A stretch of DNA of 64,000 bases, from assembly GCF_000372725.1 (NCBI RefSeq), contig NW_005201269.1:124001-188000 (forward strand). Direction: 5' to 3'. The position numbers and the translations under genes were made by a program. The stretch is from Emiliania huxleyi CCMP1516. Taxonomy: Eukaryota. Under the pieces are notes generated by a model, which searched no databases, was not told where the DNA came from, and worked only from the letters and a program-made list of their open reading frames with translations. Positions 52,739 to 60,024 of this stretch are shown here, piece after piece (the stretch's first letter is position 1; every line of letters begins with the position of its first letter).

Positions 52739-55232
52739 TCCTTGAAGAAAAGAGGCAGAGAAGAGAGTTGAGAGAGCGCCTGGCTTTGTTTGGTCATGGA
52801 AAGGGTTGCTGCATGCTGGGCTATAGGAACCACCACACTCTGGTCTCTGCGTTACTCATGCGACCTCCAACCTCAACTTCCCCTGTGGACCCCAGAATGT
52901 AGCTTTGTTCTGGGGTCCTGGGGTCTTGGTGTCCCGCGGTATGTGTCCTGGGATCGATGTCGAAATTGGAAATACGGCTGCCACATGCTTCAGGAGCAGA
53001 GACCTGATCTTCACCTTGAGACTCGCTATCCTGGTCCTTGCACATGGGACCATGTTCAGGCAGTGCTCGAGGTCCGTATGGGTCCTTCAACTCCAGAGGC
53101 TCGGGTGTCTTGGGTGCCATCATGGGTTCCGCTAAGCTCTTTGGGAGACGAGCACAAACACGCCGCAGAACGCCTTATCGCTACACAGGCGCAGCAGAAA
53201 GCAGTGACAGCCACACAGAGCGTGGCTGACGTCAGCGTCGAAGATAGTCCAGCAACGCAACAGGCAGCACGGGGGGGCATCATACAGTCAGCAGCTTGGA
53301 CCTTCTTGGCCACCAAGCCAACAATCTGGCCAACGTTTGCGTCAGACACACCAGACTCTGGTGCTGTCAAGGCCATCCGCGAGGAGGGCTCTGCTTACGC
53401 TGTGCGAGTGCGCCGAGGCAAGGCTCTCGTTTGGGTCGTACGACTCGCTGCAGATGAGCGAGCGTAGACTGGCCGACCGCTTCATGCGTCAGCATGATGT
53501 TCCGGTCTTGATGTAACGCGCTCAAGGCCATGTGCCTGCAGCAACCCGAACTACAAGAATTTTGAAGCATTACGTTTGCATGTACATCTACATTAGCCAT
53601 GATCAGATCAACCACTTACCGCTCGAGCTTTAATGCACACCATGGCTGGGCCTAGAGCTGTGGTCACTGCACACCTTCTGCGATGGCGGGACGCCGCCTA
53701 GCCACCGCCTTCAAGGCCTTGCTGGCGGGGACCTCGCATCTTCAGCCGCCAGCTTGGCAACCGCCATAACGCTTTCAACTAATGCCTATGCAGTCCGATG
53801 AGCATGCCGGACACCCGCGATCCTATTTGCGCTAGCCCGCGCATCCACCTCTCCCAGCTTCACCAACACATGCGCTCATCTCAGTCAACAGCATCACAAC
53901 AGCTTACAGTAACAGAACAACAGACATACACGCTTCACCACCATCTCCCTGATAAGCAAGCAGAACATCAGCACGCTATCATCCACCTCATCTCCAATGA
54001 CATGCCTTCACGCACGCGAGCGTCTCGCCTGCAACTGCTGACTCAGCGTCCAGTGATCCCGCTGACGGCAGACCACACCAGACCATGGATCAACCGGCAG
54101 GATACACATACACTCCTCTATCACCGACTTCAAGACATCGGGTCGTCGGTGCGAGCCAAGTCACAAGCCCAACTATGCTGATGGACAGCAGCAGCGTTGG
54201 GCCTGTGCTTGCACTCACATCGACAAGCTATCCTTTGCTTCTAGACTCCAACCAACACACACATGACATGACATGACATGACATAGCACACACATGCGCG
54301 TCCATAGGAGCCTACCTCAACCTAAGCCCTCAAGAAGAGCAATAGCCCAGCTCTTAGGGCTCAACAACAGGTGATTGAGATTGACACCTTAAGCGCGCGC
54401 GCTGACGAGCTCAACACATAGCATATAGCCTAGCCTCGTGAAGACAAGAGTACTAGCCATGCTCTTGAGGCCAACACCAGGCCATACCGCCAATAGCTCT
54501 TGCGCAGCACATGCACACATTACATGATGAGCCTAGGTTACGTGTCGCAGGCAAGCATAGCCAGCCTCTGACAGCATGAGGCACTGTTGCATCATTCTCT
54601 CTGCCCTCGGTGTCTTGGGTGATGCGCCGAACAACGAGTGCCACCATGCAGGCCAACATGGCAGCACTGCCCGCGACACGTAGCTCCGCGACATACATAG
54701 CACACGCACACCTCCATTCTGACGCGCATTGAGTCACTGCTCAAGCCAGCAGCAGCAGTCTTCTGATACAGCCTTATCGGCTGTTGCCTGCCGCCGCTGG
54801 CTCTCGGCAACCTCGATGTGCCAAGGATGTGAGGTGTCGAGGCCCTGGAACAGCCAGGGAAACCGGCCCGACGGCGGGCGGAGAAGACGGGCACTGGACC
54901 AGAAAGGACTGGGAGAGTGTGAATGGAGGGAGGGACACGGTGGACCGGGACACGCGGTGGTTCGGACAAGTGGTTGCCCGCATGCGTTTCGACGCCGTAC
55001 TCCGGGTTGTCCCGTTTCCACACGACATGAGGCGAGGAGGGACGCCGTGCCTGCATCGTTGCCGTCGCGTGCCATTGCAGCGTTTCGTCTCTTTTTAAAG
55101 ATGCCCTGCAGGCATAATCGACATCGCGTGCATTTCCTCTATTGAAAACAGCCTCAATTCTCGACCGCCGGGCGCGCGCCGCAGAGCAGGGGGCAAAGTT
55201 TCTAGCGGCTGCGAGGGCGCAATGCGTGCACG

Positions 55233-56618
55233 ATGTCCTCCGAATCGGCGTCGGAATCCGAGGCGGACTACCACTCGGCCGACTGCGACGCATCTGGGAG
55301 CGGTAGTACCTCGGCATCCGAGTCGGGCAGTGGCAGCGGCACCGAGAGCGACTCAGGCTCTAGCCGCGCGGGCGCGGGCGGCTCCATCCGCGACGCTCCT
55401 CCGTCGGACGAGGACGAGGACGAGGACTCTGACGACGGATCGGTGGTGAAGTGCCCCGACGGGCACATCATGGACGTCGTCTCCGCAAATTTCATGTACG
55501 GCTTCGCGCAATGTGTGCTTTGCCCGCACGTCTTCAATCAGTCGTACGAGGGCGCGTACAGATGTGGCGCTTGCAACGTGTTGCGCTGCCTCGACTGCGA
55601 CTTGTCGGAGACTGCTCTTGCGGGTATGACCATGGGTGCCTCAGACGGTGCGAAAGAGTCTGCAGCCGACGCTACGGCGCGGCGCGCTCGTTCCAGGGCG
55701 CGCCTAGAAGAGTTGCTTCGCTCTCGCGGGGCCGACGCTGCAGCTGAGACTGGCGGGGCTGAGAGCCCCGCCATGCCGACGCCCGCTCCGCCCCGGCCAA
55801 CTCCCCGCACCAGCGCCTCGAGCCCCGCGTCCGGGGCAGACACGGCCCCGACTGGCACGCTAGCCTTGAGGTCCAACATGGCCAGGCCCATTGAGCTCGC
55901 AGCTGGCGAAGCCGAGCGCGAGCGGCAGGTGGACGATCTAGTGGCGCAGGACCCTGAGGGCGCCCTCTGGCTAGCACGAGAGCTCCTGCGCCGCATTCCC
56001 ACTGCGCGGCTCCCGGAGGAGTCGATGCGTCATTATGCCAGGGTACCCGACGTCGATCCAGATGTCGAGGCGGACCGACGACGTGAGCCCCCGACGACGC
56101 TCACAGTGAGGTCGGCGCCCGGCGCGCCATTGGTGGTGCGGCGGCAGGTGCGCTGCGCTTGCTGCGACACGCTGATCGGCGACGGCGACACGGCCACATG
56201 CCCGATGGTTGAGATGCTCCAGCTCCTCTCTGACGACATGCAGGCGCGCCCTCGCACAGCCCCGCCCCACGCCTCTGCCCCCAGCCTCGTCCGCGCCCTC
56301 GCAATTGGCCCACCCTCTTCAACACAGCCTCACGGCACGCATCTCGTCACCACGCAGGCTCGAGACGACATCATCGCCAATGAGATCCAACTCGGCTACG
56401 ACGAGGCGGGCCTGCACCGATCTGCCAGGTATGTCTTCTACCGACAATTTATCGCGATGAAGTACGGGCACCTCGGCGCAGGCGTGCGCATTCGCCTGCC
56501 AGACTGTGTAGTCGCGGCAATCCGATGCCGCTGGCCGGAGCCCAGCTGCACGTGCGATCACGTGGCCATAGCGCGTTGCACCGCGCATGGGTACACTGGT
56601 TTCCGTGCCCAGCGGTGA
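55233..56618 (+). CDS. KolX-like protein (P2X7 ballast/nanor-type Cys domain) with N-terminal acidic tract and Cys-rich finger
   Basis: RYVFYRQF...YGHLGAGVRIRLPDCVVAAIRCRWP...YTGF, upstream CACC, and a probable in-frame intron at ~56244-56357. Confidence 0.8.
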   Translation: MSSESASESEADYHSADCDASGSGSTSASESGSGSGTESDSGSSRAGAGGSIRDAPPSDEDEDEDSDDGSVVKCPDGHIMDVVSANFMYGFAQCVLCPHVFNQSYEGAYRCGACNVLRCLDCDLSETALAGMTMGASDGAKESAADATARRARSRARLEELLRSRGADAAAETGGAESPAMPTPAPPRPTPRTSASSPASGADTAPTGTLALRSNMARPIELAAGEAERERQVDDLVAQDPEGALWLARELLRRIPTARLPEESMRHYARVPDVDPDVEADRRREPPTTLTVRSAPGAPLVVRRQVRCACCDTLIGDGDTATCPMVEMLQLLSDDMQARPRTAPPHASAPSLVRALAIGPPSSTQPHGTHLVTTQARDDIIANEIQLGYDEAGLHRSARYVFYRQFIAMKYGHLGAGVRIRLPDCVVAAIRCRWPEPSCTCDHVAIARCTAHGYTGFRAQR

Positions 56619-56708
56619 GATCGAGAGACGCACAGTCGGTCGGTCGACGTGTACTAATGTTTCTCAAACATGCCATTATAGAACACTGTACGAGACCTGT
56701 AACCGTAC

Positions 56709-59700: not shown

Positions 59701-59865
59701 TTCTTCTCGGAGGTGTAGGCCTGGTACGCCTCCAGCTGCTCATCGTACCTCGCATTGGCGGGCAGCGAGCGCGCGTGCGCCTTGGCGAGGTCGGCAAACT
59801 GCTGCTTGAGCGCAGGGAGGGCGGCGCCATCCTCCGGGAAGCCGTCGAGCGCCTGGATGCGCGCC
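56709..59865 (-). CDS. Kolobok-like transposase C-terminal half fused to Zn finger, SAP-like and OTU-like domains
   Basis: TYMNESYMHLLRIYVPKASYF..LQWNENVGR..WYKRPVRAKQT, CPRC..CAAC, MLVGPLREHL..GHKPIGDRPALRLQL and GDGNCAQRS..YW..VHYSP. The frame stays open to 59865. Confidence 0.75.
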
Positions 59866-60024
59866 TACTTTCGCGCTCGTCCGTCCGTCCACCTCCGAAG
59901 CCCCAATCTCAGATCATCTGTGAATACAAACTACTCACAGCGTAACTTAGTGTGTGGCCCACCTAAACGGCCTGCGCTTCGAGTAATATTTAACCGTCGG
60001 TCCTCCATTGTCGCCCTCCGCAAG

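What the first reader, a model, noticed from the sequence alone, without database searches (positions are those of the whole stretch)
55095..59866. Kolobok transposon whose transposase carries an OTU-like protease plus Zn-finger and SAP-like modules
Seen: a TTAA|AG terminus; a P2X7-ballast-like (KolX) ORF convergent on an ORF with the T..NES....Y.PK...F..WNEN.R catalytic-Glu region; and a long C-terminal extension with CxxC-CxxC, SAP-like and GDGNC...W...HY motifs. Known: Kolobok elements duplicate TTAA and encode KolX tail-to-tail with the transposase. Inference: an algal Kolobok lineage with a built-in deubiquitinase. The first two catalytic Asp and the other TIR are not visible, so this copy looks truncated at ~59866.
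Basis: partly seen in the sequence, partly recalled or inferred. Interest (0 to 1): 0.7.

Follow-up and report, generated by a model that had tools for sequence, protein, structure and literature searches.

The report
Algal Kolobok transposon with captured deubiquitinase
This is a shortened copy of a young cut-and-paste jumping gene, likely from a haptophyte alga, whose transposase reading frame ends in a captured OTU-fold domain predicted to remove ubiquitin, a pairing known from other transposon groups but not found in print for this one.

Summary
Confirmed and extended. The element is a Kolobok transposon. Two 98%-identical copies from other assemblies supply the missing 2.1 kb, the second inverted repeat and both missing catalytic Asp; RNA-guided splicing gives one intact 1,564-residue transposase (D370, D435, DxxH, E722). 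Four different flanks meet the TTAA|AG end, and one contig shows the empty site. The window copy breaks at about 59929-59936 on an 8-base microhomology; 59866 is only a splice acceptor. The C-terminal domain folds as OTU (pLDDT 86; best Z 11.2), keeps Cys and His, and is 47% identical to a stand-alone protein clustered with an Emiliania OTU protein. None of 47 transposase relatives carries it, so it is one family's capture, not a lineage trait. The CxxC pair matches the zinc ribbon of YABBY-like proteins; SAP is supported through relatives; KolX is weak by profile. No RNA contig spans the whole fusion and activity is untested. OTU fusions are published for Ginger1 and Helitron; this scan noted them on other superfamilies, and KolX-bearing Koloboks in diatoms, but not this pairing. 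New variant of a known kind; interest 0.5.

The parts
55095..55098 (.). TTAA target site at the surviving end
   Evidence: same TTAA with other flanks in L001, L002 and run X1; empty-site contig in run X3
55099..55113 (+). 15-bp terminal inverted repeat beginning AG
   Evidence: 13 of the 15 bases recur inverted at the other end of L002, whose contig begins two bases inside the repeat; first 10 bases shared with sister families L003, L005, L006
55233..56243 (+). KolX-like gene, exon 1 (long acidic/low-complexity N-terminus, ends with a C-x-C-C...C cluster); start Met inferred
   Evidence: RNA contig covers 55141-56239
56244..56357 (+). 114-nt GC-AG intron of the KolX-like gene
   Evidence: 114-nt skip in RNA contigs of X10 and X11; ends read
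56358..56618 (+). KolX-like gene, exon 2 (P2X7-ballast-like tail with a Cys-rich insertion)
   Evidence: Pfam P2RX7_C E 0.0069, 16.7 bits, cut-off 23.5; 52-59% identical in L006 and L005 at the same place and orientation
56709..59864 (-). last exon of the transposase gene (1,051 codons): catalytic-Glu half of the DDE core plus C-terminal modules
   Evidence: open in window, L001 and L002
59244..59246 (-). catalytic Glu (E722 of the full-length protein, in the NES motif)
   Evidence: invariant in 13 of 13 rows that cover it; aligns by eye with the terminal N-E-S-x-H motif of Kolobok rows in Data S5 of PMC9587614
58830..58979 (-). CxxC-CxxC zinc ribbon of the type found at the N-terminus of YABBY-like proteins
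   Evidence: matches the third ORF of L003, L005, L006 (E 1e-4 to 2e-6); 12 of 13 small ribbon hits scanned carry Pfam YABBY
58410..58529 (-). SAP-like helix-extension-helix
   Evidence: no Pfam hit itself; aligns with P0001 610-655 (E 4e-8), which scores SAP E 1e-4; sister transposases score SAP to E 1e-10
57867..57959 (-). small Cys-rich motif (C-x5-CC...CxxC)
   Evidence: a similar Cys pattern aligns in P0001; not otherwise tested
57420..57767 (-). Pro/Ser-rich linker between the ancestral acidic tail and the OTU domain; holds six Met codons
   Evidence: covered unspliced by an RNA contig 57430-57890
56712..57419 (-). OTU-fold cysteine protease domain; Cys codon 57308-57306, His codon 56738-56736
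   Evidence: AlphaFold2 pLDDT 85.7; Foldseek and VIA-align hits to OTU structures; Cys in 22 of 22 aligned rows; 47% identity to P0050
59865..59929 (-). 3' remnant of transposase intron 4 (acceptor AG at 59866-59865)
   Evidence: RNA contig stops matching at 59866 with 27 further letters; L002 gene model
59929..59936 (.). deletion junction: about 2.1 kb of the element (exons 1-4, second inverted repeat, second TTAA) is lost at an 8-base microhomology shared by intron 4 and the right flank
   Evidence: loose end of the 6,944-nt X3 contig and empty-site contig; L002 versus window

Best explanation
This is a 5'-deleted copy of a 6.9-kb TTAA-inserting Kolobok DNA transposon whose transposase reading frame runs without a stop into an OTU-fold domain, likely captured from a haptophyte stand-alone OTU gene and predicted to work as a tethered deubiquitinase. 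Shown: termini, TTAA, several insertion sites, an empty site, an intact five-exon DDE transposase in L002, a convergent KolX-like gene, the OTU fold with Cys and His, and absence of the domain from sister families. Inferred: the full protein is made as one chain; the DDE core cuts at the inverted repeats and pastes into TTAA; SAP and the zinc ribbon hold it on DNA or chromatin; the OTU domain then strips ubiquitin in cis, most likely from the transposase itself (sparing it from the proteasome) or from chromatin and repair proteins at the cut site. I give the anatomy with a fused, active protease about 0.7, and the self- or site-protection role about 0.45 among possible substrates. The window copy lacks promoter, two catalytic Asp and one end, so it would be immobile.
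For: Full-length copies L001/L002 at 98.3%; inverted repeat at both ends of L002; 4 flanks and an empty-site contig; RNA joints for introns 1-3 and one open 1,564-residue frame; D370 15/15, D435 17/18, DxxH 18/18, E722 13/13 among covering rows; frame open in 3 of 3 assembled copies and no frameshifting gap listed inside it for the X3 contig; RNA contig runs unspliced from residue 659 to 812 of the last exon; model pLDDT 85.7, pTM 0.86; 33 of 33 listed Foldseek PDB rows are OTU domains, best E 3e-4; best VIA Z 11.2, rmsd 3.0 over 143 residues; nearest relative P0050 clusters with an Emiliania huxleyi protein named 'OTU domain-containing protein'. Precedent: Ginger1 transposases and Helitron proteins carry OTU (PMC2836005, passages); a viral OTU-like domain acts as both deubiquitinase and processing protease (PMC5695851, abstract).
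Against: No RNA contig joins the transposase core to the OTU catalytic Cys; 57164-57430 is uncovered in both RNA runs laid on the window, and RNA contigs may include DNA. Pfam OTU does not hit the domain; best among 18 relatives is E 0.099. The residue two after His is Ser (Ser 11, Asp 6, Gln 2 of 22 rows), not the Asp/Asn recalled for most OTUs. The fused domain sits on a long branch (1.31 against 0.25 for P0050); between copies it shows 2 synonymous and 3 replacement changes, too few to show selection. The linker stays open in 15% of shuffles. Intron 4 is inferred, not seen as a joint. No copy shows both TTAA duplications. The host is inferred, no genome being held.
Confidence: 0.7

Rival explanations
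1. The OTU segment is a neutral passenger: a host gene picked up in frame by one family, now drifting, with no role in transposition.
For: Found in one family only (0 of 47 core relatives); long branch; the acidic-hydrophobic N-terminal motif of the stand-alone relatives is degenerate in the fused copy; no excess of synonymous changes between copies.
Against: After about 50% divergence from its nearest relative it still has D-G-N-C, Trp and His, no stop and no frameshift, and it folds confidently; sister families fill the same region with other chromatin-type modules.
Confidence: 0.17
2. The OTU domain works as a separate protein: translated from an internal Met in the linker, as sister families keep a separate third gene between transposase and KolX, or cut off by self-processing as some viral OTU-like proteases do.
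For: L003, L005, L006 carry a separate third ORF in this position; homology to the 276-residue stand-alone protein starts near residue 790 and Met757 lies just upstream; dual protease role in PMC5695851 (abstract).
Against: No stop ends the transposase before the OTU; an RNA contig crosses all linker Met codons and reaches 290 nt upstream of Met757 unspliced; no AT-rich spacer lies in the linker.
Confidence: 0.1
3. The truncation in the window is an assembly error and the locus holds a full-length element.
For: None of the 6 runs laid shows the window's own junction among the rows displayed (tables are cut).
Against: The junction joins intron 4 exactly to the true right flank defined by the empty-site contig, over only 8 shared bases, too short for an assembler overlap but typical of microhomology-mediated deletion (established knowledge).
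Confidence: 0.12

Closest known systems
Kolobok superfamily, Kol0/Kolobok0 lineage (Kolobok-1_XT type; Kojima and Bao 2022, PMC9587614)
   Same: TTAA target, purine-purine terminus, short inverted repeats, DDE with DxxH, second gene of KolX type.
   Different: Long C-terminal extension with ribbon, SAP and OTU; no conserved Cys finger between DxxH and Glu; KolX reduced and weak by profile; the paper lists exonucleases, helicase, homing endonuclease and KolX as accessories, no protease (0 hits for 'OTU' or 'protease' in the main text) and no haptophyte hosts.
Ginger1 DNA transposons with C-terminal OTU or Ulp1 (Bao et al. 2010, PMC2836005)
   Same: Ubiquitin-type cysteine protease fused at the C-terminus of a DDE transposase; same untested idea of a role in transposition.
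   Different: Ginger1 has a Gypsy-integrase-like transposase in animals and other target sites; an independent capture.
Helitron proteins with OTU; Mutator transposases with Ulp1 (as summarised in PMC2836005)
   Same: Transposon-borne ubiquitin or SUMO protease.
   Different: Different superfamilies; here a close candidate donor family (47% identity) and protease-free sister families are at hand.
OTU deubiquitinases (Wolbachia OTU 6w9o, OTUD1 4bop, OTUD3 4bou, yeast Otu2 7pl7)
   Same: Predicted fold, Z 10.2-11.2 over 139-143 residues; D-x-x-C loop, Trp and His motif.
   Different: 11-17% identity, large insertions (233 against about 150 residues), Ser after His, below Pfam detection; a divergent algal subfamily.

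Membership tests
Kolobok superfamily | TTAA target-site duplication | tested here: met
   TTAA at the KolX end in 4 of 4 flanks; TTAA at the opposite end in L003 and L005 (ATAA in L006); single TTAA in the empty site. Both sides of one copy were not seen.
Kolobok superfamily | 5'-RR...YY-3' termini with inverted repeats | tested here: met
   AG start; 13 of 15 bases seen at both ends of L002
Kolobok superfamily | DDE triad with C/DxxH signature | tested here: met
   D370, D435, D454xxH457, E722 conserved; Pfam Mutator-like E 9e-6 for the first-Asp exon
Kolobok superfamily | zinc finger between DxxH and the catalytic Glu (most lineages, not Kolobok1) | tested here: not met
   no Cys conserved in 75% of rows between residues 457 and 722; the paper says the feature is not universal
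Kol0 lineage | second gene KolX with P2X7 ballast similarity | tested here: inconclusive
   P2RX7_C E 0.0069 below cut-off; no Pfam hit for L005/L006 copies; no PDB hit; tail resembles by eye the KolX-like rows of Data S6; gene conserved in place in 2 of 2 sister loci long enough
Kol0 lineage | placement in the Kol0 clade of the DDE tree | not tested
   published rows were read but not aligned with these proteins
OTU proteases | OTU fold | tested here: met
   (re-aligns Foldseek's own hits, not independent)
OTU proteases | catalytic Cys and His with Asp three before Cys | tested here: met
   D-G-N-C and H-Y-S-P in the window; Cys 22 of 22 rows, clean His motif 17 of 22
OTU proteases | third triad residue Asp/Asn two after His (recalled) | tested here: not met
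   Ser in the window and 11 of 22 rows; the more distant subgroup has Asp
OTU proteases | cleaves ubiquitin conjugates | not testable with these tools
   needs an enzyme assay
SAP domain | Pfam SAP match | tested here: inconclusive
   no direct hit; positional homologue in relatives passes the cut-off

The most novel reading that the evidence does not exclude
Haptophyte Kolobok elements have an exchangeable cargo slot behind the transposase core that they fill with host chromatin and ubiquitin modules (YABBY-like ribbon plus HMG-type box, CW finger, OTU), and this family's OTU is an active eraser that strips ubiquitin from the transposase or nearby chromatin to defeat host control; protease-free sister families make it a natural controlled test of why transposons carry deubiquitinases.
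Probability: 0.25. Interest if true: 0.72.

Novelty: new variant of a known kind. Interest (0 to 1): 0.5.

Why it matters
Transposons have picked up ubiquitin and SUMO proteases several times; the 2010 Ginger paper proposed a role in transposition, and my search for a test of it returned nothing relevant. Here the capture is recent enough to point to a donor family, the element is intact, young and spliced in RNA, and close sister families lack the domain, so the question can be put to an experiment. It also adds a protease to the Kolobok accessory list and, likely, haptophytes to its host range.

Tried and rejected
Single-sequence AlphaFold of the OTU region gave pLDDT 40 and meaningless fold searches. 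Sequence searches of PDB, Pfam and NCBIfam missed the domain; the 22-row profile reached OTUD3 only at E 1.5. Three scans of viral contigs found no relative of transposase or OTU, so a giant-virus donor, suggested by Atlas clusters, has no support here. A search for longer proteins holding the OTU domain found none among 7,996 candidates, weak evidence by the tool's own note. The terminus motif occurs once in the window; no second inverted repeat in 50-64 kb. Contig depth over the element exceeds the flank gene three- to fourfold in X1 and X3 but is not used as copy number. Runs X12-X15 held small shares; X12 gave only short pieces. The wide VIA search was not run on the good model. No complex prediction was made. 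Literature: 'Kolobok' with 'OTU' gave 3 papers, 1 read in passages with no link, 2 seen as listings; two haptophyte genome or TE papers hold no 'Kolobok'; searches showed no Kolobok-protease report among listed rows. Repbase Reports and subscription journals are not searched; supplements 1, 2, 4 and most of 3 of PMC9587614 were not read and may bear on novelty.
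Full report
Observation. The sequence shows TTAA at 55095-55098 followed by AG, a + strand frame ending at 56618 and a - strand frame of 1,051 codons from 59864 to 56709, tail to tail with 90 nt between them. Pfam gave only weak hits: P2RX7_C at E 0.11 for the + frame and zinc ribbons for the - frame, no OTU and no SAP. No genome is held, so I turned to other assemblies and sequencing runs.

Full-length copies and termini. A metagenome scan with a three-protein alignment returned 6 loci from 139 pattern matches. 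L001 and L002 match the window at 98.3% over 4.77 kb and continue 2.1 kb past its break. L002 begins two bases inside an inverted copy of the window's terminus (13 of 15 bases seen) and ends in the terminus plus TTAA, giving an element of about 6.9 kb. The window, L001, L002 and a contig of run X1 have 4 different flanks at that end. Run X3 holds a 6,944-nt contig spanning the whole element and a 362-nt contig that joins 55094 to 59928 with five A between, i.e. the empty site with one TTAA (its T run is two shorter than the window's). Sister families L003, L005, L006 start with the same 10 bases behind TTAA, TTAA and ATAA. No single copy shows both duplications.

Where the window copy breaks. 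The full-length contig follows the window to 59929, and an RNA contig leaves it at 59866, where an acceptor AG sits. Intron 4 of L002 and the true right flank share 8 bases, and the window passes from one to the other there with one extra A. I read this as a microhomology-mediated deletion of exons 1-4, the second repeat and its TTAA (inference); no displayed row of the 6 runs laid shows this junction itself.

Transposase. RNA contigs of X10 give joints for three introns of L002 and for the KolX intron. With GC-AG ends for those three and the one donor of three tried that keeps the frame open for intron 4 (GT-AG), L002 yields a single 1,564-residue protein. In an alignment with 17 chosen long relatives D370 is kept in 15 of 15 covering rows, D435 in 17 of 18, DxxH in 18 of 18 and E722 in 13 of 13; no Cys is conserved between DxxH and Glu. 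These match the Kolobok definition in PMC9587614 (parts 1-2 of 6, passages and section 10 read) and, by eye, the rows of its Data S5 (parts 104-106 of supplement 3). Four of five introns have GC donors, a trait I recall for haptophytes; with the named relatives below, the host is likely a haptophyte.

KolX. The last exon scores P2RX7_C at E 0.0069, under the cut-off. The gene is conserved, convergent, in L005 and L006 (52-59%), but these give no Pfam hit and the profile finds no solved structure. Its tail resembles by eye the reduced KolX-like rows of Data S6. I file it as KolX-like.

The OTU domain. Sequence libraries missed it. The Atlas put 30 of 30 named hits in clusters where 20-35% of members carry Pfam OTU, one mostly haptophyte (a lead). 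The representative search gave 87 hits, 19 on this region. In a 22-row alignment the Cys is invariant, the Trp is in 21 rows and a clean His motif in 17; rows were chosen by similarity to the query. With it AlphaFold2 reached pLDDT 85.7. All 33 listed Foldseek PDB rows are OTU domains (best E 3e-4); the viral library agrees; re-alignment gives Z 11.2, rmsd 3.0 over 143 residues to Wolbachia OTU and Z 10.8 to OTUD1 and OTUD3. The nearest relative, P0050 (47% over 261 columns), is a stand-alone 276-residue protein clustered with an Emiliania huxleyi protein that UniRef names OTU domain-containing; another cluster holds a Chrysochromulina parva protein. The tree leaves the window domain and P0050 unresolved at the base of a well-supported 12-row group, with a long end branch of 1.31, so the donor is suggested, not proven. 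Against activity: Ser follows His where I recall Asp or Asn, and copy differences are too few to show selection.

One family, not the lineage. Of the 87 hits, 47 match the transposase core and none of them the OTU profile; 16 have at least 150 residues behind the core. The profile finds nothing in six frames of L003-L006 (L003 and L004 end early). Relatives carry SAP almost throughout, one a CW finger (P0049), and five a fused zinc ribbon, with Pfam YABBY or YABBY_N in two. L003, L005 and L006 instead have a separate third ORF whose ribbon matches the window's CxxC pair; in L005 it also scores YABBY at E 5e-6. Of 13 small ribbon hits scanned, 12 carry Pfam YABBY. So the window's ribbon is a YABBY-like N-terminal finger inserted behind the catalytic core.

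Is it one protein? The frame is open in 3 of 3 assembled copies. An RNA contig covers residues 659-812 unspliced, across every linker Met, and others cover parts of core and OTU, but none bridges the Cys codon, and contigs cannot exclude DNA. A shuffled linker stays open 15% of the time. Fusion is the default reading, not a demonstration.

Mechanism. Established for DDE cut-and-paste elements: the transposase binds the inverted repeats, excises and inserts at TTAA. Inferred here: SAP and ribbon add DNA or chromatin grip, and the tethered OTU removes ubiquitin from the transposase or from chromatin and repair factors at the break. PMC2836005 (passages) reports OTU on Ginger1 transposases and Helitron proteins and proposes such a role; PMC5695851 (abstract) shows that an OTU-like domain can also process its own polyprotein, the basis of one rival.

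Novelty. PMC9587614 lists no protease among Kolobok accessories. Searches showed no Kolobok-OTU report; Repbase is not covered. Earlier scan notes describe OTU fusions on Spy, Mutator, Ginger-like and other elements and KolX-bearing diatom Koloboks, none with this pairing, and no look-alike sequence (unchecked). Verdict: a real, new variant of a known kind, valuable chiefly as a testable case; interest 0.5.

Noticed in passing
L005:3375-4385 (+), L006:5397-6749 (-), L003 from about 6780 (+): Sister Kolobok families carry a third ORF between transposase and KolX with a zinc ribbon and a YABBY/HMG-like box (Pfam YABBY E 5e-6 in L005; L005 also has a weak winged-helix tail). A listed abstract calls YABBY factors plant-specific (PMC10671189); transposon-borne algal YABBY-like genes deserve their own look.
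   Followed up: partly
P0075, P0069, P0054, P0055, P0100, P0049: Related transposases with a fused ribbon (YABBY box in P0075, YABBY_N in P0069) or a CW-type zinc finger (P0049), showing module swapping behind the catalytic core.
   Followed up: partly
P0050, P0059, P0060, P0061, P0004, P0005: A divergent stand-alone OTU subfamily, below Pfam detection, with an N-terminal hydrophobic-acidic motif that looks like a SUMO-interacting motif (recalled pattern); a second subgroup (P0083, P0084, P0112, P0116, P0119, P0125) has G-D-C and H-F-D and sits in larger proteins.
   Followed up: partly
P0001 residues 880-1054: The closest transposase relative has a different, unnamed C-terminal domain in place of the OTU.
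   Followed up: no
window 60891-63947 (-): 1,018-codon frame with sulfotransferase (Pfam E 1.6e-9) and weak glycosyltransferase-2 matches; ordinary host gene on the right flank.
   Followed up: partly
window 50317-50466: Inverted array of 11-base GGGTTAG-containing units, telomere-like, next to 60-81 bp direct repeats at 50946-52980; possibly the end of another mobile element.
   Followed up: no
window 52000-54850: Left flank is almost uncovered in all four runs laid on the window, and 54856-54967 is a high-depth repeat; may be a strain-specific insertion.
   Followed up: no
window 59867-59915 versus L002:2105-2163: Intron 4 differs markedly between copies (window, L002, X1, X2) while exons are 98% identical.
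   Followed up: no
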